From Escherichia phage ESCO13, in sequence record NC_047770.1: a DNA stretch of 64,000 bases; one strand, written 5' to 3'. The number at the start of each line of letters is the position of its first letter. Position 1 is the stretch's first letter. Made by a program: the position numbers and the translations under genes. Of this stretch, positions 32,786 through 59,664 are shown one piece after another. The notes under the pieces were generated by a model. The model was given only the letters and a program-made list of their open reading frames with translations, did no database searches and was not told the DNA's origin.

Positions 32786-33046
32786 TTACTCCGCAATTTG
32801 AGCCATGAGATCACGCAGTTCGGTAAAACCGCCTACGTATGTTACCTCCCCGTTCACTTCAGACAGAATTTGTGGAAATGTGCGTGGAGGAACTCCGGTA
32901 AGATCAACAACTGTTTTAGTCATTGATTCTAAATCATAGTCTTGGTCAAGACTTAAATATTCAAACTGTTTATTGCGCATAGTCAATAGTTGTTTTGACA
33001 TTTCACAAAATTGACAGTTAGGTTTACCAAAAATTACAAATTCCAT
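32786..33046 (-). CDS. glutaredoxin/NrdH-like redoxin
   Basis: CQFC active site near N-terminus; about 86 aa; SD aaggagagg. Confidence 0.6.
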   Translation of the reverse strand: MEFVIFGKPNCQFCEMSKQLLTMRNKQFEYLSLDQDYDLESMTKTVVDLTGVPPRTFPQILSEVNGEVTYVGGFTELRDLMAQIAE

Positions 33047-33888
33047 TACCTCTCCTTATTAAGTAATACTGCTAAAGACTGTTCAATACCTTTATTTAAA
33101 TCTGATTTTGTAAGATAGTGACTGGTTACTAGTTGTGACTTCACCGGACGTGCTGCTGGAGCATTATAGGTTGAAGCTGATACCGCCGATATCTTAACAG
33201 GTTCTGGCATCTGTGTCAAGATCTTTTCCGCAAACTCCGCCCAAGAAATAAGATGGCTTCCTGCAAAATGGTAAGTCTTAACAGACCTTGACCAACCTGT
33301 TTTTAATACTTCAAAAATAGCTTCTGCTAAATCTGGAGCATATGTTGGACAAGAGAACTGATCAGCAACAATAATAAAATCACGTTGTCCATCATTATAG
33401 CGAGACAACATAGTTTTTAGAAAGTTATTTCCAAATTCGCTATATACCGAGGCTGTTCGAATAATATATGCATTTGGGTTAACTCCTCGCACCATTTTTT
33501 CACCAAGTTCTTTCGTATACCCATAATTGTTTATTGGGTTAGGTGTAGTGTCTTCAAAAATAGGATGAGAATAATTAAAAATATAGTCTGTGGAAATATG
33601 CACAAAATCAATTTTAAGTTTGCTGCACACTGCCGCAATATTTGCAGGGCCATAAGCATTAACAGCCAAAGCAGTAGCAAAATCTTGTTCGGCTTTATCT
33701 ACAGCCGTATAAGCGGCGCAATTAATAACACCATCTACATAATCTTCAACAATAGCGTTTCGCACAGCTTCAAAATTTGTAATATCTACACGTTCTTTAG
33801 GATAAATTAAAGATACATTTGCAGGGGCAACTTTACGTAAAGCTTGTCCCAGTTGTCCATTACCACCCAATACCAGATATGTTAGCAT
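33046..33888 (-). CDS. rmlD: dTDP-4-dehydrorhamnose reductase
   Basis: [17 protein letters not shown] Rossmann N-terminus; last gene of rml order. Confidence 0.65.
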   Translation of the reverse strand: MLTYLVLGGNGQLGQALRKVAPANVSLIYPKERVDITNFEAVRNAIVEDYVDGVINCAAYTAVDKAEQDFATALAVNAYGPANIAAVCSKLKIDFVHISTDYIFNYSHPIFEDTTPNPINNYGYTKELGEKMVRGVNPNAYIIRTASVYSEFGNNFLKTMLSRYNDGQRDFIIVADQFSCPTYAPDLAEAIFEVLKTGWSRSVKTYHFAGSHLISWAEFAEKILTQMPEPVKISAVSASTYNAPAARPVKSQLVTSHYLTKSDLNKGIEQSLAVLLNKER

Positions 33889-34448
33889 ACACCCTCGCTA
33901 CGTAACTGTTGAAAAGATTTAGCCATTGCATCTTTTGTTGATAGGATAGGTTTAAAACCTTCATCAAAAATCATATCGAAGCCCCAATCGATCCCTATAT
34001 CAGGATCATCCCAACGTAAACTTTCTTCACTAGAAGGGTCGTATGGAGTTGTGCATTTGTATTCAAAGATAGCATCCATACTCAAAACTATAAAACCATG
34101 TGCCAAACCAGGTGGAAGCCAAAACTGCGTATGGTGTCGTGCACGAAGAACAACACCGTCCCAAGCACCGTAAGTAGGACTATCTTTACGTAAGTCTACA
34201 GCGAAATCCAATACTTCACCACTTACACAACGAACAAGCTTACCTTGCGGATTATTTGTTTGAAAGTGCATTCCTCGCAAAACACCGAAGTTTGATTTAG
34301 ACATGTTATCTTGAACGAAAGTTTGTCTACCAATGATATCTTCGTATTTTTGTTCATTATATGTTTCTAAAAAGAAACCACGGTCGTCTTTATAAACGTC
34401 TGGTTTGATAATTACCGCACCTTCAATTTTTGTTTTTTCTACTTTCAT
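33882..34448 (-). CDS. rmlC: dTDP-4-dehydrorhamnose 3,5-epimerase
   Basis: Start moved to ATG 34448 (ATGA overlap with rmlA stop); cupin-like RmlC sequence. Confidence 0.65.
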
Positions 34449-35323
34449 TTTCCCTCCGCTAATTTGAGTAGGTATTGCCCGTACTCTGTTTTCTTCAGTG
34501 AGTTTCCATGGTAGACCAAAGTCTCTAAAGAAATCCACCCTTTTTTGAAAGCAATTTCTTCCAGGCACGCAATCTTCAATCCTTGACAGTTCTCAATAGT
34601 CTGCACGAATTGACCAGCTTCCATCAGACTGGCGTGTGTTCCTGTGTCAAGCCAAGTAAATCCTCGTCCGAGAACTTCCACTTGTAACTTCCTGTCTTCG
34701 AGGTAGCTGCGATTGATATCAGTGATCTCCAGTTCTCCACGCGCGGAAGGGGTTACTTCTAATGCACGTTGAATAACAGAGTTATCATAGAAATACAAAC
34801 CTGTGACAGCATAATCTGATTTAGGATTTTCAGGTTTCTCTTCAATAGAAATAACTTGACGATTACTCCCAAATTCAACCACACCGAATCGTTCAGGATC
34901 TTTCACCAAACACCCGAAGATACAAGCTCCGCCCCAAACATCTACCATCTCACTAGCGTCAATCAGTAGTTTACCAAAGCTTTGTCCGAAGAATAGGTTG
35001 TCACCTAAAATAAGAGCAACAGAGTCTTCTCCGATAAAATCTTTACCGATGATGAAAGCGTCCGCAAGACCTCGTGGCTTGGATTGGATTGCGTAAGTGA
35101 GTTTTATCCCAAACATAGACCCATCTCCAAGAAGATACTCAAAGTCTTCCTGATCGCCTGGTGTGGTGATGATTAAGATATCCTTAATGTCAGCCAACAT
35201 CAATACCGATAAAGGGTAGTAGATCATGGGTTTGTCATACACAGGGAGCAATTGCTTGCTCACACTGCGTGTTACCGGATGAAGGCGGGTTCCACTTCCT
35301 CCCGCCAAAATAATACCTTTCAT
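34445..35323 (-). CDS. rmlA: glucose-1-phosphate thymidylyltransferase
   Basis: [20 protein letters not shown] aaggagg. Confidence 0.8.
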
Positions 35324-35331
35324 AACCCTCC

Positions 35332-36324
35332 TTAAATCTTCTCACTCCACCATTGAGGGTTGTTTAAGTACCATTCAATCGTTGAGTAGAGATCTTGTTC
35401 AAATGTAGAGTTTGCACTCCAACCCAGTTCAGACTCTATTTTAGAAGGATTGATTTCATAACGCAAGTCATGTCCTTTACGATCTTCAACAAAAGTTATC
35501 AAGTTGGAAGAAGGGTAGGTTCCTGCTTCTGGATGTACAGCATCCATGTAGTCACAAACCATATAGATGATCTCCATATTGGTTTTGGGATTACGTGTTC
35601 CAACATTATACGTTTGACCTGGTTCTCCACCTGTTGCCACTTGAAGAATAGCTCGCGCATGATCCTCAACAAAAAGCCAGTCTCGCACCTGATCGCCTTT
35701 ACCATACACCGGAATCTCTTTATTCGTCAAGATACTTGTGATGATTTTTGGGATCAGCTTTTCTGGATGTTGATAAGGTCCAAAGTTATTGGAGCAGTTG
35801 GTTATCACAACAGGTAAACCGTAGGTACGGTACCAAGCTTTCACAAGATGGTCAGATGCTGCCTTAGACGCACTGTACGGGCTTGAAGGGGCATAAGCTG
35901 TCTCTTCGGTAAAGGGAACGCCAGAGTCTGCCATATCGCCGTACACTTCGTCTGTGGAGACATGTACGAACATCTTAAGTTTATTTTTTGGGAGGAGCCT
36001 TGCAGCTTCCAATAAATTGTATGTACCAATAATATTGGAGTCGATGAAAACTCGTGGATTCTTGATAGAATTATCCACATGACTCTCTGCCGCTAAGTGA
36101 ATGATGAAATCGGGATTGCACTCTACTACTAAACTTTTGACCTGGGTTTCGTTTGCCAAATCTGTTATGCTCAGTTTAACGTGAGTGATATCGCCTACAT
36201 TCTCAATATCTGCTGCATAGCCCATCTTATCAACGACAAAAACTTCGTTATTGGGATCTTGACAAAGAGAGCGCACCACGGCACTCCCAATAAAACCAAG
36301 ACCACCTGTTACCAGATAGCGCAT
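35332..36324 (-). CDS. rmlB: dTDP-glucose 4,6-dehydratase
   Basis: [22 protein letters not shown] (YxxxK); SD aaggagaa. Confidence 0.8.
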
Positions 36325-36956: not shown

Positions 36957-37165
36957 TATTCCTCCTTAATTATTTCAAATTTGGCAACACCATTTACAAT
37001 AATATGACCACAAGACATAACTCCTAGCCAAGGATCGCCGTTTTTCTTCAGGCGTTTACCGAATACATCACAAAAACCATTCTTCATTTCAGAGGCTTCA
37101 TAAGAAGCCCCTTTATCAAAAACGTCTTTGAATGTGTCGATTATACCAACACATTTCAAAATCAT
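36956..37165 (-). CDS. hypothetical protein
   Basis: SD gaggag; ATGA overlap with nrdB stop. Confidence 0.4.
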   Translation of the reverse strand: MILKCVGIIDTFKDVFDKGASYEASEMKNGFCDVFGKRLKKNGDPWLGVMSCGHIIVNGVAKFEIIKEE

Positions 37166-38250
37166 TCGAAGTCAAGCTCCTCATCATCAGAGAGATCTTT
37201 GTTAGCTGAATTCAATTTGTAGTTAGTTAACTGAATCTCTTGGGCTGCTGACTGAATCAAATCAGGATTCAACCATTTTTCCATCCAAGCTAAAGGGCTA
37301 TGTTTAGGTGCTTTAAACTTGGCTTTCATTTTCAATCGACGATAAATAGGAGCAGCATTGAAATAAACCCACTGTTTAGACAATTCGGCGTTAAGACCTA
37401 CAATAAAACGACCTTCACTAAACAGGTAGTCACACCACTGTTCCTCTTGTTCAACAACAGTGTCGAGGATCAAAGTCAACTCTTCAATATTGTCTTCGTA
37501 AATTTTACGCCAAATTGGGTCATGCATCAATGCATCAATTACAGCATAATCCATCTTAACATGCAAGATTTCATCTAGCATAATTTTCTGGATCAGTTTA
37601 CAAGCCCCAACAAACAGTTGTTGTTCTGCCATAGCAAAAGTAGCAGAGAAGGAAGATATAAACTGAATACCTTCTAATCCAATCAGGGCTACCATCCCTT
37701 TAAGAATCAGCAGTCGAAGTTCATCGTTAGCTTCAATCAATCCTAGAGCATACTTATGACCAGCTTCTTCCAACTGACCCATGATATCAGCAATGATACC
37801 CATACGATTGAAAATTTTATCATTAATCATAATCTGATTGATGACTTCAATTGGATCTGGAGTACATTGACGGATTATTTCAGAATACGTTAACGCATGG
37901 AGAACTTCCATTTCACTCTGCTTCATCATCATAGCACAGGCTTCATTGTTACTCAAAAATGGAGAGAACAAAGTGATGATTGATTTTGCAAGAGAATCAT
38001 TTTCCCATTGGAACGATAAGTTTTTAATCATAACATCATAGTTGTTTTTAGAACAAGCTACGAAATCTTTACGTGTCTGATCCAGATTGACTTCATTCTC
38101 ATCCCAATCTTGTGCTTTTTGAAGTTTGTAGAGTTTGTGCATTTCTGGATAAGTTACGTTAACAGAATCAAAGATCCCTAATTGCTCCCCCAAAAATACT
38201 GGATATTTTCCTGTTTTGTAAACTTCATTGTGTAAATTAATTGCTGCCAT
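37162..38250 (-). CDS. nrdB: ribonucleotide reductase class Ia small subunit
   Basis: Ferritin-like motifs EVLHALTY and GLEGIQFISSF; acidic C-terminal tail DDEELDFE; SD gtggagga. Confidence 0.8.
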   Translation of the reverse strand: MAAINLHNEVYKTGKYPVFLGEQLGIFDSVNVTYPEMHKLYKLQKAQDWDENEVNLDQTRKDFVACSKNNYDVMIKNLSFQWENDSLAKSIITLFSPFLSNNEACAMMMKQSEMEVLHALTYSEIIRQCTPDPIEVINQIMINDKIFNRMGIIADIMGQLEEAGHKYALGLIEANDELRLLILKGMVALIGLEGIQFISSFSATFAMAEQQLFVGACKLIQKIMLDEILHVKMDYAVIDALMHDPIWRKIYEDNIEELTLILDTVVEQEEQWCDYLFSEGRFIVGLNAELSKQWVYFNAAPIYRRLKMKAKFKAPKHSPLAWMEKWLNPDLIQSAAQEIQLTNYKLNSANKDLSDDEELDFE

Positions 38251-38575
38251 TTAAGTCCTCCACTATATAACACATGCTTTTAAGTTCTGCAATATCTTCT
38301 TCGCTTGCTCCGTCTATCTTATAAACACCTTCTAGACCATCCCATACACTTTTAGTTAAGATTATTGTTATGTTATTTTCTGATCTTGCTCTACCTAATG
38401 CAAAAGCCGTTGCACTAGGATCATCAGAAGCCCATATTTGTATATCCCTAAGTTGGTAGGCAGCAATATAATTGCAACACCAATGTAAAGTAAAATCTTT
38501 GGAATCTACCAAGATAACGGTTCCATCACGTTTATGGATAGGTGATGCGCCTGGTAACACTATTAATGTTTCCAT
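38237..38575 (-). CDS. hypothetical protein
   Basis: SD aaggaga upstream. Confidence 0.45.
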   Translation of the reverse strand: METLIVLPGASPIHKRDGTVILVDSKDFTLHWCCNYIAAYQLRDIQIWASDDPSATAFALGRARSENNITIILTKSVWDGLEGVYKIDGASEEDIAELKSMCYIVEDLNGSN

Positions 38576-38616: not shown

Positions 38617-40863
38617 TCACATAGAGCAGCCTTCACAACCAGATTCTTTTAAGTTATCTTCTTGTGCTAAAGAGTCTGCTGATTTTGTTCTACTGTTAAG
38701 GTAATACAATGACTTGCCACCCAGTCTAGCAAAATTCAGAATAAACTGCATCTCAGCTTTCACTGATAAACGTCCACCTACCAATTTAGAATAATCTAGC
38801 CAAGAATCACAAGAAATTCCTTGGTCCGTAAACTTGGTAAAGATACCATACATTTCTGCAAGATCTTTAGCCGGAGTGTCCCAGGCAGACTGGTAGAACA
38901 TTTTCAGTTTTTCATAATCTGGAACAATAAATAATACGCTACCTTTCTGACTTTGTTTATACATAATAGTATCACGAACAGGGTACAGAGAGTTAGTAGT
39001 ATTGCTTACCAAACTGCTGGACTCATTAGGTGCAATAGCAGCCAAGACACTGTTACGGATACCACCTTGTTCAATGATTTCAGCACGTAAGCCTTCCCAG
39101 TCCATTTTAAGATCAAAATTACCGATACTATCTACTGTTTTAGCATAAGTGTCAATTGGTAGCCAACCTTGAGGCCATTTGGTCTTATCGATCCATTCTG
39201 CATTACCTTTTTCCTTAGCCAGACGCAGAGAGGCTTTTGCCAACCAAAAGTAATGACGTTCTGCAAGTTCATGCATTAATTTTTTAGCATAAGCATCTGA
39301 ATAATTTACAAAATTACTTGCCAAATAATGCGCTAAGTTTGTAATACCTACACCAATAGATCTACGTGCTTTAGCAGTTATTTCGTTATGTTTAAATGGA
39401 TAATCCATTGTTTCAATAACGTTGTCAATTGTCAATACAGTGTAGTATGCAACATCCTCATATTCTTCAGGTAAGACACGACCAGCGACAATAGAAGATA
39501 AGAAGCATAAAGCCAATTCTTGATCTTCTGTATTCTCACCAGTAAAGAGATCCGGCATATTGTGGAAAGCTTTAGTTGGTAAGAAGATCTCTTGACACAG
39601 GTTTGATTGATACACCGTATCCAGGAAAGGTGTATGGTTGTTAACGTTGTCAGCAAAGAACATGTAAATACGTCCTGTTTCTGCACGTTGAACAATAATC
39701 TCTGTCAGAAGATCACGAGCCTTAACAAATTTTTTCTTAATGCGACGACGGCTTACTTTGTCATAAACTGCATCAAACTCTTCTTCACTTTTATACAAGG
39801 CTTCATAAAGTTCAGGAGCATCATCACAACTAACTAACATCCAGTCTTCGTTTTTTGCTGCTCGACGCAAGAACGAACGGTTAACAACAATAGAATAATC
39901 TAGTTTGTCTACTCGTTTATCTATAGGTGTTGTTGGATTCTTCAGTCGAATCAGATCGTCGAAGTCTGGTTCAAGTATGGTAAAGGTAACTGTAGCACTA
40001 CCTCCACGGCTTGCTTGCTTCGAAGCTCCAACACTATCTTCCATCCATTTCAGATATGGAAGAAGACCACCATGAATAATACGATTATTCTTAACACCTT
40101 GACCTGTGGCACGAGTTTGAAGATTAACACCAATACCTGCGTTATTCAACGTATACTCATGAGCTAAGTAATTAGCAATGGCTAAAGACTCTGCCGTATC
40201 GTCTGCACGGAACAAACAACAAGACGCACTTCCTTTGATTGGAGTTCGTAGAGTTGTCAGATATGGCGATGGCAGATTAATCTTAAGATCGCTGACATAA
40301 GTATAAAGTTTTTTAATATCTTCTATACGGCGTTCTTTTGGTTGGATCTCCATAACCTTCATTGCGATACCAATGAAAAGGAACTGTGGAGACTCATGCA
40401 CCACATCGTTTACTGCATCTCGAATAAGATATTTATCCACCATTTGACGTAAAACAGAATAACCATAAGTTAGATTTTTATTATGCTTTACAATCTTACC
40501 GATTTCTTTGATCTCTTCATCAGTATAATCCATTTTAGCCCAATGACCACGTTCTACCATATCATGATAAAAGGTATTCAGTGAAGGGATACTGTGGTAT
40601 CCCCCATGAGCCTGTTTGTAAATCATACCCAGAAGAAGTCTTCCTGCCATATCACTGTAAGCTTGTGTTTTCTTGTCAATACACGCTGCAATCATTGCTT
40701 TATGCAGATCACGTGTAGACACACCGTCATAACACCGCTTCACAGCTTCTAATTCAATTTCAGACCAGTTTAGTTTACCTGCTGCAAATTCAGACCACTT
40801 GCGAAGTTTTTCTGGATTAAACTCCTCTGTCTTACCGTTAGATTTAGTTACAAAACGAATCAA
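38617..40863 (-). CDS. nrdA: ribonucleotide reductase class Ia large subunit
   Basis: 748 aa; N-terminal ATP-cone-like region; C-terminal Cys pair CEGC; adjacent nrdB; SD gggaggag. Confidence 0.85.
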   Translation of the reverse strand: MIRFVTKSNGKTEEFNPEKLRKWSEFAAGKLNWSEIELEAVKRCYDGVSTRDLHKAMIAACIDKKTQAYSDMAGRLLLGMIYKQAHGGYHSIPSLNTFYHDMVERGHWAKMDYTDEEIKEIGKIVKHNKNLTYGYSVLRQMVDKYLIRDAVNDVVHESPQFLFIGIAMKVMEIQPKERRIEDIKKLYTYVSDLKINLPSPYLTTLRTPIKGSASCCLFRADDTAESLAIANYLAHEYTLNNAGIGVNLQTRATGQGVKNNRIIHGGLLPYLKWMEDSVGASKQASRGGSATVTFTILEPDFDDLIRLKNPTTPIDKRVDKLDYSIVVNRSFLRRAAKNEDWMLVSCDDAPELYEALYKSEEEFDAVYDKVSRRRIKKKFVKARDLLTEIIVQRAETGRIYMFFADNVNNHTPFLDTVYQSNLCQEIFLPTKAFHNMPDLFTGENTEDQELALCFLSSIVAGRVLPEEYEDVAYYTVLTIDNVIETMDYPFKHNEITAKARRSIGVGITNLAHYLASNFVNYSDAYAKKLMHELAERHYFWLAKASLRLAKEKGNAEWIDKTKWPQGWLPIDTYAKTVDSIGNFDLKMDWEGLRAEIIEQGGIRNSVLAAIAPNESSSLVSNTTNSLYPVRDTIMYKQSQKGSVLFIVPDYEKLKMFYQSAWDTPAKDLAEMYGIFTKFTDQGISCDSWLDYSKLVGGRLSVKAEMQFILNFARLGGKSLYYLNSRTKSADSLAQEDNLKESGCEGCSM

Positions 40864-40879: not shown

Positions 40880-41122
40880 TTAATGCATATTCAAAACATC
40901 TACATCATAACCGAACTTCATTTCATTAAAAAGTCCATTAGCATATAGAAAACCTTCAAAATGAGTTATGTCATCAAACCCTTTTGCTTTTGCTCGACGG
41001 TCTGCTTCTTGTCTTTTAGGAGATAAACGTTTTGAAGTGTCTAGAATTACAGTTACATTACAACCAACAGTTTCATCAAAATAGACTTCGATTTCACAGC
41101 CTTCATATTTATTATCAGTCAT
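40880..41122 (-). CDS. hypothetical protein
   Basis: Start moved to ATG 41122 after SD gagagg. Confidence 0.4.
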   Translation of the reverse strand: MTDNKYEGCEIEVYFDETVGCNVTVILDTSKRLSPKRQEADRRAKAKGFDDITHFEGFLYANGLFNEMKFGYDVDVLNMH

Positions 41123-41130
41123 TGTCCCTC

Positions 41131-41574
41131 TCATTGATTAGTATCATCTGCTTTCGCAGGATCATAAGAGTTACCGAAATCATCCATCTTAATATGTGAC
41201 GCACCCCAACCTGTAAATTCTTCATCACCAAAATGAAAAATATCATTTTCTTGATAGATTCGTTTAAAACCACAATTAGGTGAAACAGGGAAAGTGAAAA
41301 GCGTTGTATTTGCAAACACTACTCGCTTATCGTTATTGCTTCGGATATTCACATTACGCTCAACAGAATAGTGTGAATCTTCAGCCATACCCAGCATTAC
41401 AAGCGACGCTCTAATAACAGCATTTTGTTTCTCGTGTGGGATATTGCCATTGTGTTTATTTGATTCTAGTTTCCAGATAGGGGTAGACATTACAGTAGAC
41501 ATGCTTACGGTAGCCCAAGTTGTAGTATTTACTAATGACATATTTTCTCCTTCATTTTGAATGGGAGGACTCAC
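41131..41574 (-). CDS. hypothetical protein
   Basis: SD ggaggagg upstream. Confidence 0.45.
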   Translation of the reverse strand: MSPPIQNEGENMSLVNTTTWATVSMSTVMSTPIWKLESNKHNGNIPHEKQNAVIRASLVMLGMAEDSHYSVERNVNIRSNNDKRVVFANTTLFTFPVSPNCGFKRIYQENDIFHFGDEEFTGWGASHIKMDDFGNSYDPAKADDTNQ

Positions 41575-41639: not shown

Positions 41640-42638
41640 TCACCATTTAGTATGATTTGTTAAAAGTTGACGATGTTGAATCCAGCCTTTGAAATTGCCA
41701 GACCAAAACTTACCATTACGATCTACATGGGTAATACCTGGTTCCCAAGAGTTAAAATCCCAAGGAGCATTGATAAACAAATCTTCAAAACAGTTCTCTC
41801 CATATTGTTCGCATGTTTCTTGCATTGGAGTGGCTTGATGTTCAAACGGAGAAGCATGAACCTTGCGCCCAGTCAGCAAGCGACCATAGATATCTAAAGC
41901 TTTATCTTTAGTTGCATTTAAACGACGATAGCTAACCTGTGCACAACACGAAGCTGAAATAGCTTTGGCTTCTTCCAAAGTAAGCACAACGACTTCTCCA
42001 GATTCATTTTGAACGTAGTATCCACCAAAAACAAAATGATCGTCACCTTCTGTGCCAATAGTATCATAGAAATGGTCTACATAAGGTGTGTGCCATTGCC
42101 CTGGTTTCAGCACTTCTGGTGTAGATCCTTCATACTCTTTGTGCATCTCTTTAGCCAAAGCTTCGATAGTAGGATCGGCTTCTTTGTCATCACGTAGCCA
42201 CCAGAAATTTTCATATTCTGTTGCTGTCAGAACTGTTTTAATTCGTTGGAAAGGTTCCAGAAGACGGTTTGCAACTTGTTTGTGGTACCCTGCCAAAGAA
42301 AATTCTTCTGCAAAACGTGCTGCACTAAGCGCGGCAAGATCCCACCACTCTTGAGCAGTATAACCTGCATCAATAAGAGCGTCATGATCAACACCTTTAT
42401 CCTGCATACCAGGTTGGTTAGCCCCAAAACGATAAGGACGAGCAGGTTGATTTCGCACCATTTCAATCAGTGTTTTAACAGGTATAGCACGGCTAGAAGC
42501 AGCATTACGACTGAACAGGCGGTGAGTCATCAATTCTGAATGAATAATACGTGGATATTCTAGTTCAAAAGTTACAATCTCTTTTCCGTCTTCAGTGATG
42601 GAATGCGCAATAATACTAGCCGAAATCTGTTTTGTCAT
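41640..42638 (-). CDS. ThyX-like flavin-dependent thymidylate synthase homolog (long, divergent)
   Basis: THRLFSRNAASSRA resembles the ThyX RHRxxSxNExSxRY motif with first Arg replaced by Thr; 332 aa; SD aaggaga. Confidence 0.5.
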   Translation of the reverse strand: MTKQISASIIAHSITEDGKEIVTFELEYPRIIHSELMTHRLFSRNAASSRAIPVKTLIEMVRNQPARPYRFGANQPGMQDKGVDHDALIDAGYTAQEWWDLAALSAARFAEEFSLAGYHKQVANRLLEPFQRIKTVLTATEYENFWWLRDDKEADPTIEALAKEMHKEYEGSTPEVLKPGQWHTPYVDHFYDTIGTEGDDHFVFGGYYVQNESGEVVVLTLEEAKAISASCCAQVSYRRLNATKDKALDIYGRLLTGRKVHASPFEHQATPMQETCEQYGENCFEDLFINAPWDFNSWEPGITHVDRNGKFWSGNFKGWIQHRQLLTNHTKW

Positions 42639-42647
42639 TTTTTCTCC

Positions 42648-43256
42648 TTAGTTTTTAAAATTGTTCAAAGTGTTAAAAACATCCAAACATGTTAGCCACT
42701 GATCTTCTAAACCTGTGATCACAACATTTGGTTTTTTCTTTAGTTCTTCTAGATGGTTATCTTTATAAGGCGTATTAAAATATATTTTAACCACTTCATC
42801 TGGAAAATATAGTAGGTTATCAGCCCTGTCATCTATTGCTATATCACAAGGCAATAAGTATTTTTCTTTCGTAGCAAAAAAGCCGTTGCCAGATCCTTTG
42901 CTAAAATCAATCGTATCTAATGTTCTTAAAACATGCTTATGTTTAGAACTTAAGTGACCACCTTTTGTCACACTCGCGATCAAAAGATTGCTACCTTTCC
43001 TTGAAACATACTTTAAGAAATCTGGCATACCTGGAACAAAACCCATTGTATCGTAGAGATGAGGATTATCCAGAAATCCGTAAGGATCTATGTTGAACTC
43101 TTCCCTGAAACCAGGAAAATAGTTGGTAAGATCATAATCTGCATTTTTTGTGAATGTGTCGATTTTAACACCAAGGCCACTAATCTTATTCAACCATTCT
43201 AACCAAGCAACATCTAACGGAGCCACAACTAAATCCCAATCACATACTATCTGCAT
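42648..43256 (-). CDS. HAD-like phosphatase, possible 5'(3')-deoxyribonucleotidase
   Basis: N-terminal VCDWDLVV (DxD-type motif I); IAIDDRADN; SD gaggagg. Confidence 0.4.
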   Translation of the reverse strand: MQIVCDWDLVVAPLDVAWLEWLNKISGLGVKIDTFTKNADYDLTNYFPGFREEFNIDPYGFLDNPHLYDTMGFVPGMPDFLKYVSRKGSNLLIASVTKGGHLSSKHKHVLRTLDTIDFSKGSGNGFFATKEKYLLPCDIAIDDRADNLLYFPDEVVKIYFNTPYKDNHLEELKKKPNVVITGLEDQWLTCLDVFNTLNNFKN

Positions 43257-43292: not shown

Positions 43293-43868
43293 CTAACTTT
43301 CAATTTCCTGCAATAGGATTTTGACTATTTGTTTACGGCGTTTTGCTACTGTGCTTTCAGGTTCTATTTTACGCTTCTTCAGCCATGCTTTATCTTTCTT
43401 AGCTCTACACAAAGCTATCGCTTCTTTTTCAGCTTTTGCTTCTTCAAAAGATATGCCTTGCTTGTCTGCATAAGCAAGAATAGAGTTGCACAATTTACAA
43501 ACCATTCGCAAATCTTCTTCTTTCACATAGATCAAACGGAAAACAAAAAGAGGAATATCATCAAAACATTGAAGTTGTTTTGCTGCGTGAATATGATCCA
43601 CTTGGAAGTCTTTCATTCCTCCTCTATGTCCACATATTTCGCACTCACAATTCCAAACTTGTTTTGGTTTTCCAGTTTTCTTATCTAGTATTACATTGCC
43701 GTCTTTATCTACGCGATCAACTTTAAAACGCCTTGCATTGATAACCTTAATTTTATTAGGGTGTCTCATCCATGCTTTTCTAAAACATCCCCTAAGATAA
43801 GTATAAAATTCCGCTTGTGTTTTCCAGGGTGTTCCTTCACCCCACATTATTTTTGGTTCACCTGCCAA
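43293..43868 (-). CDS. HNH endonuclease
   Basis: CECEICGH ... VDHIHA ... CKLCN. Confidence 0.65.
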   Translation of the reverse strand: MAGEPKIMWGEGTPWKTQAEFYTYLRGCFRKAWMRHPNKIKVINARRFKVDRVDKDGNVILDKKTGKPKQVWNCECEICGHRGGMKDFQVDHIHAAKQLQCFDDIPLFVFRLIYVKEEDLRMVCKLCNSILAYADKQGISFEEAKAEKEAIALCRAKKDKAWLKKRKIEPESTVAKRRKQIVKILLQEIES

Positions 43869-44035: not shown

Positions 44036-44437
44036 TTAGTATTGCTCGCCACTAATACGTTCCTTAAGTTGTTTAATAGCTTCGATTGCATCTACATAAG
44101 AAGAGTTATACATGTGTTTCAGTGCCACTCGGATTAAAGGATCTTTTGTGAAGAAATCAATAAGAAGCATAGCTTGATCATGTTTAGCTGCATTTGTCAT
44201 AGATGGATAATTTTCACGAACCATATACGTGTTATTTTGCATAAGGGTTCTTTCTAGTTCGATACAATGAATAGCTTTATCTAGGTTAATCTGACGTTCA
44301 CCTTTAATACGTGTTGCGTATTTTGCCAATTTGCAAAAACAAGGTGTGCCACCAACCAAATAAGCTAGTTCAATAGGTTGCATTGCCATTTTTGTGTAGT
44401 GATCACCGTCAACCTGATTATCAAAAGCATTAGACAT
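44036..44437 (-). CDS. hypothetical protein
   Basis: SD caggagg upstream. Confidence 0.45.
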   Translation of the reverse strand: MSNAFDNQVDGDHYTKMAMQPIELAYLVGGTPCFCKLAKYATRIKGERQINLDKAIHCIELERTLMQNNTYMVRENYPSMTNAAKHDQAMLLIDFFTKDPLIRVALKHMYNSSYVDAIEAIKQLKERISGEQY

Positions 44438-48047: not shown

Positions 48048-48773
48048 TTACTTATTAATAATACCTGCAATATTAGGTTTGACAAAGGTCGATGGTTTCA
48101 TGATCTTACCTTTATCATCAAAGAACACATACACTTTCTGTTTTTCATTATAAACAGCATGAACACCAGTGTATGCCCCTTCTGGACGATTGGCATTTCG
48201 TTCTTCAATTGCAGCGCATTCTTGTGCAATGGCTGAATCGATATCCGAAGTTTTCCAAGTTTTCAGCAACTGTTGTTTAGTTGGATACTTGGAATCATTA
48301 CTTTTCAATACCTCTTTAATAACTTTCTTTTCTGGATATTTTGAACGGATTAGAGTGTCACGAGACATACGCATAATACCAGCAGCCATTAGTGCCATTT
48401 GAACTGGCTCTGTAAATGTTTGTTCCAAAGCATCAAAATCAGTATACACAGTTGGAGTAAAAACATCGCCTACAGCATAGTCCAAGAAATTCATCGTATG
48501 TTCTTCACCAAAGAACATGTAGGTCAGATAACTGGATACTACAAAAATATCCGCTGCTGCATCCAAGAGTTCTACATGATCGTTTACTTTCGCGGCTGTT
48601 TCATACTCTTTAAGCTCTTCACGAACGAATCCGATTTGGGACATAAATAGCTCTTGAGTGAATTCAGGTTGTTCACCACCTCGTGCTTTAGCATTCCAAT
48701 CAATCACGTGCTTCGCTGCATTTTTGAAAAATTCAGTATCGAACTTAATATCTTTAAAAAAATTCTCGATCAT
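48048..48773 (-). CDS. MazG-like nucleotide pyrophosphohydrolase (putative)
   Basis: REELKEYE ... ELLDAAADIFVV resembles the MazG EExxE...D core; SD aaggag. Confidence 0.4.
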   Translation of the reverse strand: MIENFFKDIKFDTEFFKNAAKHVIDWNAKARGGEQPEFTQELFMSQIGFVREELKEYETAAKVNDHVELLDAAADIFVVSSYLTYMFFGEEHTMNFLDYAVGDVFTPTVYTDFDALEQTFTEPVQMALMAAGIMRMSRDTLIRSKYPEKKVIKEVLKSNDSKYPTKQQLLKTWKTSDIDSAIAQECAAIEERNANRPEGAYTGVHAVYNEKQKVYVFFDDKGKIMKPSTFVKPNIAGIINK

Positions 48774-57536: not shown

Positions 57537-57608
57537 GGCCCTGTAGCTCAATGGGAGAGCTGTCGGCTCATAACCGATAGGTAGCTGGATCGAAACCAGC
57601 CAGGGCCA
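57537..57608 (+). tRNA. tRNA-Met or Ile2 (anticodon CAT)
   Basis: Hand-folded cloverleaf; acceptor ggccctg/cagggcc; loop cuCAUaa; CCA encoded; resembles E. coli tRNA-Ile2 (from memory). Confidence 0.7.
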
Positions 57609-57613
57609 CCAAA

Positions 57614-57685
57614 GTCTTTATGGTGTAATGGATAGCACAGGAGTCTTCTAAACTCTTAGTCAAGGTTCGATTCCTTGTAAAGACA
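57614..57685 (+). tRNA. tRNA-Arg (anticodon TCT)
   Basis: Acceptor gtcttta/taaagac; loop cuUCUaa; T-arm caagg-ttcgatt-ccttg; CCA encoded. Confidence 0.7.
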
Positions 57686-57884
57686 CCAGAACATTTTAAC
57701 ATGAATTAGCTCAAGTGATTTGAACCCACTACTGATCATGGTGGCAGAGAATGAGGCAAGTATGTCAGACATTATAAACAAAGGCCACGGTTATATTAGA
57801 AGACATAAATGCTCGAAGAGCACCGTTCGTGGAGAACGGGGGTTGGTGGAGTCACCATTCATGGTAAAATGTTTTAAAAAACTA

Positions 57885-57914
57885 TTGACAACAAACATTA
57901 TTTTATGTTAGATT
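57885..57914 (+). promoter_or_regulatory. sigma70-like promoter inside the tRNA cluster
   Basis: TTGACA-18-TAGATT. Confidence 0.4.
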
Positions 57915-57922
57915 ATAAGTAT

Positions 57923-58010
57923 GGAAGGGCAAATCGATGTGGCGACGAAAACGGTCTTGAAAACCGCCGAGCTTGAAAGAGCCTTGGGAGTTCGACTCTC
58001 CCTCCTTCCG
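57923..58010 (+). tRNA. tRNA-Ser (anticodon TGA)
   Basis: Long variable arm; loop cuUGAaa; T-arm gggag-ttcgact-ctccc; CCA encoded. Confidence 0.6.
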
Positions 58011-58018
58011 CCAGATTA

Positions 58019-58101
58019 GGTAGATTGGTGAAATGGTAGCCACGACAGTTTGCTAAACTGTAGTCGGAAACGGCGTGTAGGTTCGAGTCCTACATCTACC
58101 G
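58019..58101 (+). tRNA. tRNA-Ser (anticodon GCT)
   Basis: Acceptor ggtagat/atctacc; loop uuGCUaa; long variable arm; CCA encoded. Confidence 0.6.
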
Positions 58102-58234
58102 CCAAGTTCTTTTTAATGTAGCTTACTTTAGCAGAGTAAATCTTCGGCAAGTGGCGGTAACCACTTTACCGATACCTCATAGTTAGTGGTGTGAACACTG
58201 GCTATTTTAAAAAGAATTTAAATATTAGTATTTA

Positions 58235-58319
58235 GGTGAGTTAATTCCGTAGGGGTAGCGGGGCAGACTGTAAATCTGTTATCATTGCGATTCGGGTGGT
58301 TCGACTCCATCACTCACCA
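58235..58319 (+). tRNA. tRNA-Tyr (anticodon GTA)
   Basis: Acceptor ggtgagt/actcacc; loop cuGUAaa; long variable arm; CCA encoded. Confidence 0.65.
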
Positions 58320-58328
58320 CCAAATTAA

Positions 58329-58411
58329 GATGAGTTGGCTGAATGGTTTAAGCGGCGGACTGTTAATCCGTGTTCGAAAGAACAATATAGGTTCGAATCC
58401 TATACTCATCG
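58329..58411 (+). tRNA. tRNA-Asn (anticodon GTT) with unusually long variable arm
   Basis: Anticodon arm gcgga-cuGUUaa-tccgt matches E. coli tRNA-Asn (from memory); extra gttc-gaaa-gaac hairpin in variable region; CCA encoded. Confidence 0.55.
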
Positions 58412-58505
58412 CCAGAATTATGGACTTGTAGAGTTAAGGTAAACCCCCCAGTCGCCAATAGGCTTCTGGAATTGCAGGTATCGAATCCTGCCGAGTCCCA
58501 GCATT

Positions 58506-58577
58506 GCTCCTATAGTATAATGGCTATTACAACGGTTTTGTAATCCGTGGATCTCTGTTCGATTCAGTGTGGGAGCA
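58506..58577 (+). tRNA. tRNA-Thr (anticodon TGT)
   Basis: Acceptor gctccta/tgggagc; loop uuUGUaa; one mismatch each in anticodon and T stems; CCA encoded. Confidence 0.5.
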
Positions 58578-58854
58578 CCAACACAACATTAAGAGCACTG
58601 TGATTGATCGTCGTATCCTGTGCACAAGGTCTGCTCGAAAGACAGTGTTCTTAGTATTGTGTTGATCACAAAAAGAGTCACCCGAAACTTGACCGGAGTA
58701 GGGTTGGATGGGGCAAAATGAGAAGCGGCTCTCCCATCGACAGCAACGAAGAATAATATTTGACTTTGGTTTTGTATTATTTTAAGTTAGCTTACCGAAC
58801 GTAGGGCTAGTCACCCAACGGGATACTCGTCACTGTCCCAATCAATAAAAGTCT

Positions 58855-58883
58855 TGACAACAAATAGTAAAATGTAGTATAGT
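58855..58883 (+). promoter_or_regulatory. sigma70-like promoter upstream of tRNA-Gly
   Basis: TTGACA-17-TATAGT. Confidence 0.5.
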
Positions 58884-58894
58884 AAATATATATG

Positions 58895-58965
58895 GCGTTC
58901 TTGGTGTAGCGGTAGCATTCCGTCCTTCCAAGTCGGCGGCACGAGTTCGATCCTCGTAGAACGCT
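58895..58965 (+). tRNA. tRNA-Gly (anticodon TCC)
   Basis: Acceptor gcgttct/agaacgc; loop cuUCCaa; T-arm acgag-ttcgatc-ctcgt; CCA encoded. Confidence 0.65.
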
Positions 58966-59066
58966 CCAAATTATTTAATAAAGGGTTGCCAGAAAACTTT
59001 CTCTTTTACTCATGGTTTTCTCCTTCTCTCACACTTCTTCTGGTTGCCCTTCATTAAATGATTTAT

Positions 59067-59139
59067 TGGTTTGTAGTGTAGTCCGGTAGCACACGACACT
59101 TTGACTGTCGTAGGTTTGGTTCAAATCCAGACAGACCAG
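59067..59139 (+). tRNA. tRNA-Gln (anticodon TTG)
   Basis: U1-A72 and discriminator G as in E. coli tRNA-Gln (from memory); loop cuUUGac; CCA encoded. Confidence 0.65.
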
Positions 59140-59235
59140 CCATATAACAAAGGTGAGTCACTACCTTAAGTGTGAAGTTAAAAACGAGGAGCCGCCGAAC
59201 ACTTTCTTTTGCGGTGTACCTTTAGAATGTTATCA

Positions 59236-59309
59236 CGGGACGTAGCACAGCTTGGTAGTGCGCTCGCTTTGGGAGCGAGAGGTCGAGTGTTCGAATCACT
59301 CCGTCCCGA
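59236..59309 (+). tRNA. tRNA-Pro (anticodon TGG)
   Basis: C1-G72 start as in bacterial tRNA-Pro; loop uuUGGga; T-arm gagtg-ttcgaat-cactc; CCA encoded. Confidence 0.7.
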
Positions 59310-59318
59310 CCAATTAAA

Positions 59319-59389
59319 TGTTTCGTAGTTCAATGGTAGAACCCACGACTGATAATCGTGAGACACAAGTTCGATTCTTGTCGAAACAA
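59319..59389 (+). tRNA. tRNA-Ile (anticodon GAT)
   Basis: Anticodon arm cacga-cuGAUaa-tcgtg; T-arm acaag-ttcgatt-cttgt; CCA encoded. Confidence 0.65.
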
Positions 59390-59470
59390 CCAGTTTCCCG
59401 TTAGACTTACAGGATAAGAGTTCCACAGCTTATTGTGATGCTGGTTCGAATCCAGCACGGGATACATAAT

Positions 59471-59546
59471 AGCGGGATAGAGGAGTCTGGTCGTCCTCGC
59501 CAGTTTCATATGCTGGAGATCATCGGTTCAAATCCGATTCCCGCCT
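59471..59546 (+). tRNA. tRNA-Met (anticodon CAT), A1-C72 mismatch
   Basis: D-stem gagg/cctc; anticodon arm ccagt-uuCAUau-gctgg; T-arm atcgg-ttcaaat-ccgat; CCA encoded. Confidence 0.6.
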
Positions 59547-59664
59547 CCAAATATCGCTTGCCAGCGGTATCTTTGAAGACCTTGCCTGGTTCCTTCTAAG
59601 ATGGAGGGGTGCGACTCCTTAACGCACAATTATAATAAAGCATTTCAACTTAACAGTATTTACT

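What the first reader, a model, noticed from the sequence alone, without database searches (positions are those of the whole stretch)
41640..43256. Divergent long ThyX-like protein next to a HAD nucleotidase-like gene
The ThyX signature appears as THRLFSRNAASSRA (first Arg replaced by Thr) in a 332-aa protein, about 100 aa longer than typical ThyX. Together with the HAD-like, MazG-like and nrdAB genes this could be ordinary dTMP supply or part of a modified-pyrimidine pathway.
Basis: partly seen in the sequence, partly recalled or inferred. Interest (0 to 1): 0.45.

Follow-up and report, generated by a model that had tools for sequence, protein, structure and literature searches.

The report
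Rearranged phage-type ThyX thymidylate synthase
This E. coli phage gene most likely makes thymidylate for phage DNA as annotated, but it belongs to a very large phage-only branch of the ThyX enzymes whose chain segments are in a different order and whose active-site lid is rebuilt, apparently never described or tested.

Summary
Window 41640-42638 (-) encodes a 332-aa protein carrying THRLFSRNAASSR. Window 42648-43256 (-) encodes a HAD phosphatase of the 5'(3')-deoxyribonucleotidase (NT5C) type. The window is a Phapecoctavirus (phAPEC8-like coliphage), and GenBank already labels the gene "FAD-dependent thymidylate synthase".

The extra length is not a simple extension. The helical hairpin and H-x-S/T-P-x-E-H motif that open a canonical ThyX sit here at aa 226-267, after the rest of the domain. 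A family-specific tail (aa 268-332, GNFxGWxQxR) follows.

Equivalents of Thermotoga H53, S88, R90, R147, N169 and R174 are kept. R78 (Thr), Y91 (Ala), E86, R74 and Q75 are replaced throughout the clade. The clade has about 5,000 clusters at 50% identity and occurs in 1,033 phage records, including N4, ICP1, rV5-like and Pakpunavirus phages.

Inteins in homologues sit exactly in the catalytic motifs. Neighbours are RNR and dCTP deaminase genes. Relatives are highly restriction-sensitive. I found no ThyA, DHFR or hypermodification genes.

Best reading (about 0.75): a working flavin-dependent dUMP-to-dTMP synthase. A modified-pyrimidine role is not supported. No biochemistry or solved structure for this clade was found.

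The parts
41640..42638 (-). Gene for the 332-aa phage-type (non-collinear) ThyX-like flavin-dependent thymidylate synthase
42489..42527 (-). ThyX signature, aa 38-50, THRLFSRNAASSR (first Arg replaced by Thr; the next residue, A51, replaces the lid Tyr of canonical ThyX)
   Evidence: Translation. H39 and R50 are invariant and T38, S48 and S49 are at least 90% conserved. Thr in 96 of 97 and Ala in 97 of 97 representatives. Aligns to Thermotoga R78-R90.
41838..42113 (-). Relocated segment, aa 176-267: a beta-rich stretch, two helices and HASPFEH. It corresponds to the N-terminal helices alpha1-alpha2 and the HETPFEH flavin/folate-site motif of canonical ThyX.
   Evidence: The profile aligns query 221-265 to Thermotoga chain 31-73 (PDB numbering with tag). 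hhalign aligns Q226-270 to Tm20-62. Splicing this segment in front of aa 20 raises Pfam from 33.4 to 50.7 bits and hhalign from 34-36 to 58.1, while 22 controls reach at most 41.3.
41838..41858 (-). HASPFEH motif (aa 261-267), equivalent to Thermotoga H53-H59
   Evidence: Translation. H261 is invariant and S263, E266 and H267 are at least 90% conserved. It is the intein insertion point A262|S263 in 7 homologues.
41643..41837 (-). Family-specific C-terminal tail, aa 268-332, with no detectable similarity to canonical ThyX
   Evidence: hhalign of the tail against Thermotoga ThyX and against the rest of the protein gives nothing. It is modelled with high confidence.
41670..41699 (-). Conserved tail core GNFKGWIQHR (aa 314-323; R323 invariant)
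   Evidence: Translation. R323 is invariant and N315 and Q321 are at least 90% conserved. A GN[FL]xGWxQxR-like core is visible in nearly all the representative tails printed.
42644..42648 (-). Shine-Dalgarno AGGAG for the ThyX-like gene, overlapping the stop codon of the NT5C-like gene (the two genes are translationally close-coupled)
   Evidence: Sequence read directly.
42648..43256 (-). Gene for a 202-aa HAD-superfamily phosphatase of the NT5C / 5'(3')-deoxyribonucleotidase type
   Evidence: Pfam NT5C 26.1 bits. phrog_420. D6xD8, S95, K132 and D142-D143 are invariant. AF2 pLDDT 94.5. Foldseek top hits are deoxyribonucleotidases 3bwv, mdN and cdN with TM about 0.7.
38617..40863 (-). nrdA (class Ia ribonucleotide reductase alpha), context in the same leftward gene block
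   Evidence: ORF. Annotation of near-identical records.
37162..38250 (-). nrdB (ribonucleotide reductase beta), context
   Evidence: ORF. Annotation.
48048..48773 (-). MazG/PRA-PH-type nucleoside triphosphate pyrophosphohydrolase, context
   Evidence: ORF. Pfam PRA-PH 28.2 bits, cut-off 21.3. Annotation.

Best explanation
The 332-aa protein is a functional flavin-dependent thymidylate synthase of a phage-restricted ThyX lineage with rearranged chain order.

Shown here: it has the ThyX fold. The FAD/folate-site segment that begins canonical ThyX (helices alpha1-alpha2 plus H-x-S/T-P-x-E-H) lies after the C-terminal helices of the core. A conserved 65-aa tail follows. The residues that canonical ThyX uses for uracil and phosphate binding and for flavin chemistry are kept: Thermotoga H53, S88, R90, R147, N169 and R174 correspond to H261, S48, R50, R125, N144 and R149.

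Inferred: like canonical ThyX it binds FAD, is reduced by NAD(P)H, and relays the methylene of CH2H4folate through flavin N5 to C5 of dUMP. The products are dTMP and tetrahydrofolate, so no DHFR is needed.

Inferred, weaker: the canonical contacts lost in this clade are R78 (flavin ring and dUMP), Y91 (lid over C5/N5), E86 (ribose O3') and R74/Q75 (phosphate). They may be replaced by clade-specific elements, namely the GNFxGWxQxR tail and/or the PxxWGxNQxGMQ loop.

The gene is translationally coupled to an NT5C-type deoxyribonucleotidase, which probably trims dUMP/dTMP or other dNMP pools. It sits in the leftward gene block with NrdAB and a MazG-like enzyme. Together they feed dTTP to phage DNA replication, and possibly also to the phage's own RmlA (dTDP-rhamnose) pathway.
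For: - **Rearranged order:**
- **Catalytic residues:** conserved by alignment.
- **Strong purifying selection:** mean column identity is 65% among close homologues and 36% among distant ones, with fixed motifs.
- **Inteins:** those with HNH or LAGLIDADG endonucleases interrupt homologues at H33|S34, within or near the ThyX motif, just after R149, and at A262|S263. These are the catalytic motifs, as is usual for essential enzymes.
- **Genomic context in unrelated phages:** dCTP deaminase two genes upstream in N4, and RNR adjacent in Pakpunavirus K5, ICP1 and Vequintavirus. Published genome analyses place it with dCMP deaminase and RNR (PMC12846349, PMC11934525).
- **No alternative enzymes:** no ThyA, collinear ThyX, DHFR, Dut, Dcd or dCMP deaminase was detected in the window plus 125 kb of a near-identical genome. 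No hypermodification genes are annotated.
- **Restriction sensitivity:** Vequintavirinae and phi92-like relatives are 'exceptionally susceptible' to RM systems including EcoRI and EcoRV (PMC8594841). One of them, EmilieFrey/Bas61, carries a 73%-identical homologue.
Against: - No member of this clade has been assayed or solved, as far as the searchable literature and the PDB copy show (17, 59).
- The protein misses the TIGR02170 thyX equivalog cut-off by far (31.1 against 87.9 bits).
- Several residues that papers describe as dUMP/flavin contacts or as needed for activity are replaced. These are R78 (PMC3498832, PMC6514825), the lid Tyr (Y99A nearly abolished PolB activity, PMC5003785), and the PolB ribose-O3' and phosphate ligands.
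- Restriction sensitivity does not exclude small modifications such as 5-hmU.
Confidence: 0.75

Rival explanations
1. It is a flavin-dependent pyrimidine C5-transferase with altered substrate or product. Candidates are UMP or dCMP as substrate, a di- or triphosphate substrate, or water capture of the exocyclic methylene to give 5-hydroxymethyl-dUMP. The product would feed a modified base, perhaps linked to the phage's dTDP-sugar and glycosyltransferase genes.
For: The replaced residues are the ones that contact the sugar 3'-OH, the phosphate and the flavin ring, and the Tyr that shields C5/N5 from solvent (PMC5003785, PMC6514825). PolB shows that ThyX-fold enzymes can shift substrate (PMC5003785). 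An rmlABCD cluster lies in the window, and four glycosyltransferases sit next to the replication genes in a near-identical genome.
Against: The uracil-recognising Arg residues (R50, R149) and the phosphate Arg (R125) are invariant. The same clade occurs in hundreds of phages of very different types, next to dCTP/dCMP deaminase and RNR, which is the standard dTMP route. Relatives carrying the gene and the dTDP-sugar genes are highly restriction-sensitive (PMC8594841). Known thymidine hypermodification starts from a ThyA-family hydroxymethylase (PMC8989533), and no ThyA homologue is present.
Confidence: 0.12
2. It is an ordinary collinear ThyX with an unrelated extra C-terminal domain, which is the simplest reading of '100 aa longer'.
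Against: Between the first two strands (aa 6-14 and 20-29) there are 5 residues, where canonical ThyX has about 40 (alpha1, alpha2, HxxPFEH). That segment, including HASPFEH, is found at aa 226-267. Splicing it back gives one continuous alignment to Thermotoga residues 20-196, while controls do not. All 97 representatives that have both motifs show this order.
Confidence: 0.05
3. It is a catalytically dead ThyX-like protein that only binds nucleotides or flavin, acting as a regulator or a decoy.
For: Loss of R78 and the lid Tyr, and a score below the equivalog cut-off.
Against: The remaining catalytic residues are near-invariant over about 5,000 clusters. Inteins sit in those motifs. It is the only thymidylate synthase candidate in these genomes.
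Confidence: 0.03

Closest known systems
Canonical flavin-dependent thymidylate synthase ThyX/FDTS (Pfam PF02511, TIGR02170; e.g. Thermotoga maritima TM0449, M. tuberculosis and PBCV-1 ThyX)
   Different: Chain order: the alpha1-alpha2/HxSPxEH segment comes after the core instead of before it. There is a 65-aa tail with GNFxGWxQxR and an inserted PxxWGxNQxGMQ loop. R78 is Thr, Y91 is Ala, E86 is Ala/Met, R74 is Ser/Ala and Q75 is Glu. The protein is 332 aa rather than about 220-250. It scores 31 bits against the 87.9-bit equivalog cut-off. The clade is apparently confined to phages, with no assay or structure found.
PolB, the UMP/dUMP C5-methylase of polyoxin biosynthesis (PDB 4p5a)
   Different: PolB is collinear with ThyX. 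It keeps the full RHR motif and the Tyr residues (Y99, Y124, Y126) that determine its activity and specificity. Here the Y99 equivalent is Ala.
5'(3')-deoxyribonucleotidases of the NT5C family (human mdN and cdN; S. epidermidis 3bwv), for the neighbouring gene
   Same: HAD core with DxD, Ser/Thr, Lys and DD motifs. The closest structures by Foldseek have TM about 0.7. The Pfam NT5C cut-off is just passed.
   Different: Only 14-18% identity. Substrate is unknown. The family is a narrow phage group (23 clusters found; phrog_420 'unknown function'). It is linked to the ThyX-like gene only in Vequintavirinae/Stephanstirmvirinae-type phages.

Membership tests
ThyX / FDTS (PF02511, TIGR02170) | Pfam Thy1 gathering score | tested here: met
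   33.4 bits against 24.8, but only profile positions 59-190 of 191 are matched.
ThyX / FDTS (PF02511, TIGR02170) | TIGR02170 thyX equivalog cut-off | tested here: not met
   31.1 bits against 87.9.
ThyX / FDTS (PF02511, TIGR02170) | ThyX signature RHRxxSxxxxSxR | tested here: not met
   The motif is THRLFSRNAASSR, so 5 of the 6 fixed positions are kept and the first Arg is Thr. Thr is fixed in the clade.
ThyX / FDTS (PF02511, TIGR02170) | ThyX fold | tested here: met
ThyX / FDTS (PF02511, TIGR02170) | Collinear topology (HxS/TPxEH segment N-terminal to the ThyX signature) | tested here: not met
   The signature is at aa 38-50 and HASPFEH at aa 261-267. The order is the same in 97 of 97 representatives.
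ThyX / FDTS (PF02511, TIGR02170) | Catalytic and ligand residues (Thermotoga H53, S88, R90, R147, N169, R174; also R78 and Y91) | tested here: inconclusive
   By alignment the first six are present and invariant or nearly so (H261, S48, R50, R125, N144, R149). R78 is T38 and Y91 is A51.
ThyX / FDTS (PF02511, TIGR02170) | FAD binding, NAD(P)H- and CH2H4folate-dependent dUMP-to-dTMP activity, thyA complementation, homotetramer | not testable with these tools
   Needs biochemistry, genetics or a structure. No report for this clade was found.
NT5C 5'(3')-deoxyribonucleotidase (PF06941), neighbouring gene | Pfam gathering score and HAD motifs I-IV | tested here: met
   26.1 bits against 24.8. D6, D8, S95, K132, D142 and D143 are invariant.
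NT5C 5'(3')-deoxyribonucleotidase (PF06941), neighbouring gene | Fold closest to deoxyribonucleotidases among HAD enzymes | tested here: met
   15 of the top 16 Foldseek hits are 3bwv, mdN or cdN (TMq 0.60-0.70); the other is a designed esterase with the same fold. Other HAD enzymes rank below them, mostly at TMq 0.4-0.58.
NT5C 5'(3')-deoxyribonucleotidase (PF06941), neighbouring gene | dNMP (dUMP/dTMP) phosphatase activity | not testable with these tools
   Needs an enzyme assay.
Thymidine hypermodification pathway (5-hmdU based; PMC8989533) | ThyA-family dUMP hydroxymethyltransferase | tested here: not met
   tblastn with E. coli ThyA gives no hit better than E = 4.6 in the window plus 125 kb of a near-identical genome.
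Thymidine hypermodification pathway (5-hmdU based; PMC8989533) | 5-hmdU DNA kinase and aGPT-Pplase genes | not tested
   None is annotated in near-identical genomes, but no profile search was run for them.
PolB-type UMP/dUMP methylase | [quoted passage not shown] | tested here: not met
   The equivalent position is invariant Ala (A51). Residue roles are from PMC5003785.

The most novel reading that the evidence does not exclude
Loss of the lid Tyr and of the first motif Arg, together with the new C-terminal tail, may have changed the chemistry or the substrate of this phage clade. One example would be release of 5-hydroxymethyl-dUMP instead of dTMP; another would be action on a different uridine or cytidine nucleotide. 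In that case N4-, ICP1-, rV5- and phAPEC8-type phages would make a non-canonical pyrimidine through a flavin enzyme, possibly connected here to the dTDP-rhamnose and glycosyltransferase genes.
Probability: 0.07. Interest if true: 0.8.

Novelty: new variant of a known kind. Interest (0 to 1): 0.38.

Why it matters
ThyX is a drug target and a textbook case of a second, unrelated solution to thymidylate synthesis. All solved and assayed ThyX enzymes that I could find are collinear and carry the full RHR motif and the lid Tyr.

If the phage clade works as inferred, the ThyX active site tolerates a permuted chain and replacement of two 'essential' contacts. The clade has about 5,000 clusters at 50% identity and is present in the model phages N4 and ICP1. 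Its mechanism, oligomer assembly and inhibitor sensitivity may therefore differ from the canonical enzymes.

There is also a practical point. Strict ThyX models (TIGR02170, the RHR motif filter used in PMC2826268) miss or only half-match these proteins. Surveys of viral thymidylate synthases may therefore undercount or misalign them.

For this particular window the practical conclusion is modest. The gene is an ordinary part of the phage's dNTP supply, already annotated as such.

Tried and rejected
- **Single-sequence search against PDB sequences:** found nothing relevant. A family profile was needed.
- **About 630-aa homologues as tandem duplications** that might explain a permutation: rejected. 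They are intein-containing versions with HNH or LAGLIDADG endonucleases.
- **Internal duplication within the 332-aa protein:** no signal between the halves or between the tail and the core.
- **NT5C-ThyX linkage as a general rule:** rejected. It is adjacent only in the Vequintavirus relative (37% identity) and absent within 4 kb in N4, ICP1 and Pakpunavirus K5, and absent from the whole fetched locus (5-8 kb of flank) of a metagenomic relative.
- **Cellular homologues:** the genome-contig scan gave only 10 loci, all on MAG contigs that look like phage.
- **Unavailable resources:** Model coordinates are not exposed, so I could not measure whether the tail reaches the active site or run a permutation-aware superposition.
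- **Papers on R78-equivalent mutants and the folate site** (PMC2258874, PMC3465422) are not held. Residue roles were taken from PMC3498832, PMC5003785 and PMC6514825.
- **The 133-aa ORF at 44036-44437** reminded me of DUF3310 (T7 gp1.7-type kinase), but Pfam gives no hit.
- **Small ORFs flanking the ThyX gene in other phages** have no Pfam match.
- **Literature searches** for a described permuted or assayed phage ThyX of this type found none.

Full report
**What the window is.** A 3-kb stretch around the finding is 100% identical to Escherichia phage vB_EcoM_3A1_SA_NWU (OR062524.1). It is 99% identical to many other Phapecoctavirus (phAPEC8-like, Stephanstirmvirinae) coliphages. In those records the gene is already annotated 'FAD-dependent thymidylate synthase' or 'thymidylate synthase ThyX', and its upstream neighbour is 'hypothetical protein'.

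**Checking the observation.**
- ORF 41640-42638 (-) is 332 aa. AGGAG lies 5 nt before its ATG and overlaps the stop codon of the upstream gene.
- Codons 38-50 translate to THRLFSRNAASSR. This is the ThyX signature with Thr in place of the first Arg.
- ORF 42648-43256 (-) is 202 aa and passes the Pfam NT5C threshold.
- nrdB, nrdA and a MazG/PRA-PH-type pyrophosphohydrolase lie on the same strand.

**What the long protein is.**
- Pfam Thy1 matches only aa 22-174, to profile positions 59-190 of 191. TIGR02170 thyX gives 31 bits against a cut-off of 87.9. PHROG 85 'thymidylate synthase' matches the full length at 364 bits.
- An AlphaFold2 model built on 57 diverse homologues is very confident (pLDDT 94.5, pTM 0.91).

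**The chain order differs from canonical ThyX.**
- A family profile searched against PDB sequences aligns three pieces to Thermotoga ThyX out of order. Query 221-265 aligns to chain 31-73, which is alpha1-alpha2 and HETPFEH. Query 27-55 aligns to chain 74-102, and query 138-180 to chain 171-213.
- In the model, only five residues separate the first two strands (aa 6-14 and 20-29). Canonical ThyX has about 40 residues there.
- I moved aa 176-267 in front of aa 20. The Pfam score rose from 33.4 to 50.7 bits and the matched profile range widened from 59-190 to 14-190.
- With hhalign, the native order gives two separate alignments (scores 35.9 and 27.2). The spliced order gives one alignment to Thermotoga residues 20-196 (score 58.1, probability 95%).
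- Controls stay low: core alone 34.1, tail spliced instead 35.0, reversed segment 34.0, and 20 column-shuffled segments 33.3-41.3.
- There is no sign of an internal duplication, and the last 65 residues resemble nothing in ThyX.
- I therefore describe the protein as a non-collinear, circular-permutation-like ThyX with a family-specific tail. I could not run a permutation-aware 3-D superposition because model coordinates are not exposed.

**Active-site bookkeeping (by alignment).**

| Thermotoga residue | This protein | Status |
|---|---|---|
| H53 | H261 | kept |
| T55 | S263 | kept |
| E58 | E266 | kept |
| H59 | H267 | kept |
| H79 | H39 | kept |
| R80 | R40 | kept |
| S88 | S48 | kept |
| R90 | R50 | kept |
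| R147 | R125 | kept |
| N169 | N144 | kept |
| R174 | R149 | kept |
| R78 | T38 | replaced |
| Y91 | A51 | replaced |
| E86 | A46 | replaced |
| R74 | S34 | replaced |
| Q75 | E35 | replaced |

- Most of the kept residues are invariant or at least 90% conserved in the 57-sequence alignment. R40 reaches 90% only among the close homologues.
- According to the literature, the first motif Arg hydrogen-bonds both the flavin ring and dUMP (PMC6514825, PMC3498832). In PolB it contacts the ribose O3' together with the Glu equivalent to E86, while the R74/Q75 equivalents bind the phosphate (PMC5003785).
- The Tyr forms a lid over uracil C5 and flavin N5 (PMC6514825). Its Ala mutant nearly abolished PolB activity (PMC5003785).
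- The substitutions are fixed in the clade. Among the 150 best 50%-cluster representatives, 97 have both motifs. Of these, 96 have Thr, 97 have Ala, and 97 have the signature before HxSPxEH. Nearly all the tails printed show a GN[FL]xGWxQxR-like core.
- The constant co-occurrence suggests that clade-specific elements replace the lost contacts. Candidates are the tail with invariant R323 and aromatic F316/W319, and the PxxWGxNQxGMQ loop. This is inference and was not tested.

**Evidence that it is a working enzyme.**
- Seventeen of the 150 representatives are 520-680 aa long because they carry inteins with HNH or LAGLIDADG endonucleases.
- The insertion points are H33|S34, within or next to the ThyX signature, just after R149, and A262|S263 inside HASPFEH. 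Inteins characteristically sit in catalytic motifs of essential enzymes.
- The clade occurs in 1,033 phage records: rV5-like, phAPEC8- and phi92-like, ICP1, Pakpunavirus, N4 (gp30) and N4-like, phiCbK-like and others.
- Its neighbours are those of a dTMP pathway. N4 has dCTP deaminase two genes upstream. Pakpunavirus K5, ICP1 and Vequintavirus slur16 have RNR next to it.
- Published genome papers place it with dCMP deaminase and RNR (PMC12846349, PMC11934525).
- In the window plus 125 kb of the near-identical phage nieznany, tblastn finds no ThyA, collinear ThyX, DHFR, dUTPase, dCTP deaminase or dCMP deaminase. This is therefore the only thymidylate synthase candidate. The absence of DHFR fits ThyX chemistry.

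**Modified-pyrimidine pathway?**
- Nothing supports it. Known thymidine hypermodification starts from a ThyA-family dUMP hydroxymethyltransferase (PMC8989533), and none is present.
[quoted passage not shown] EmilieFrey (Bas61) from that set has a 73%-identical homologue.
- This argues for ordinary thymine, although it does not exclude small changes such as 5-hmU. I keep an altered-chemistry reading at about 0.1, because exactly the sugar, phosphate and lid contacts have changed.

**The neighbour.**
- The 202-aa protein has invariant HAD motifs: D6xD8, S95, K132 and D142-D143. Its model is confident.
- Its nearest structures are 5'(3')-deoxyribonucleotidases: S. epidermidis 3bwv and human or mouse mdN and cdN, with TM about 0.7.
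- Its family is narrow (23 clusters). It lies next to the ThyX gene only in the Vequintavirus relative examined, so the pairing is lineage-specific.
- By analogy with mdN and cdN, it may trim dUMP/dTMP or other dNMP pools. That is inference only.

**Distribution.** A scan of 185,579 species-representative genomes, using two strict peptide patterns, found only ten loci. All are on MAG contigs of 7-128 kb. A distant homologue sits between phage primase-helicase, UvrD and PolA genes. The clade looks virus-restricted, within the limits of those searches.

**Known or new?** The annotation 'ThyX' is old and probably functionally right, so for this window the finding is ordinary. I could not find any description of the rearranged chain order, the fixed Arg-to-Thr and Tyr-to-Ala changes, or the conserved tail. 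I also found no assay or structure for any member. I therefore rate it a new variant of a known kind, of moderate interest. Everything beyond fold, order and residue conservation remains inference.

Noticed in passing
window 33046-36324 (-): A four-gene rmlD/C/A/B-like cluster for dTDP-L-rhamnose synthesis, next to a glutaredoxin gene (32786-33046). It consumes dTTP. The near-identical phage nieznany also has four glycosyltransferase genes beside its primase and DNA polymerase, outside this window. The target of the sugar is unknown.
   Followed up: partly
window 38237-38575 (-), between nrdB and nrdA: This is a variable slot. The window has a 112-aa ORF (phrog_17458) here, phage nieznany has an HNH endonuclease, and OR062524.1 has only a 44-bp gap. 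The window is therefore not identical to OR062524.1 throughout: the coordinate offset is 2051 before this slot and 2379 after it.
   Followed up: partly
window 43293-43868 (-): A free-standing HNH endonuclease gene (phrog_1985) lies directly upstream of the NT5C-like gene. Together with the inteins in ThyX homologues and the nrdA/nrdB slot, this nucleotide-metabolism block looks like a hot spot for homing elements.
   Followed up: no
window 57537-59549 (+): A cluster of 10 tRNA genes found by ARAGORN (Met, Arg, Ser, Asn, Thr, Gly, Gln, Pro, Ile, Met). The GenBank record also lists a tRNA-Tyr that ARAGORN did not call.
   Followed up: partly
window 44036-44437 (-): A 133-aa ORF (phrog_10946, unknown function) whose N-terminal pattern (DGDHY...QPIE...KY..R) reminded me of DUF3310, the T7 gp1.7 nucleotide-kinase domain. 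Pakpunavirus has a DUF3310 gene two genes from its ThyX (PMC12846349). Pfam gives no hit here, so this is only a lead.
   Followed up: partly
L009-L018 (GTDB species-representative MAGs): Ten MAG contigs assigned to Bacteroidota, Chloroflexi, Gammaproteobacteria and others carry the phage-type ThyX. They are probably phage contigs binned into bacterial MAGs.
   Followed up: no
L006 4962-5306 (Pseudomonas phage K5 gp101): A 114-aa ORF annotated 'thymidylate synthase' lies directly downstream of the long ThyX and upstream of RNR. It has no Pfam match, so the label is probably an annotation carry-over.
   Followed up: partly
window 41131-41574 (-) and 40880-41134 (-): Two conserved small ORFs (phrog_15711, phrog_15807, unknown function) sit between the ThyX-like gene and nrdA. 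A strong sigma-70-like promoter match (TTGACT-16-TATAAT, 41623-41596, - strand) lies just after the ThyX stop codon.
   Followed up: no
whole window: GC skew changes sign near 20 kb and near 56 kb, matching the switch between rightward and leftward gene blocks.
   Followed up: no
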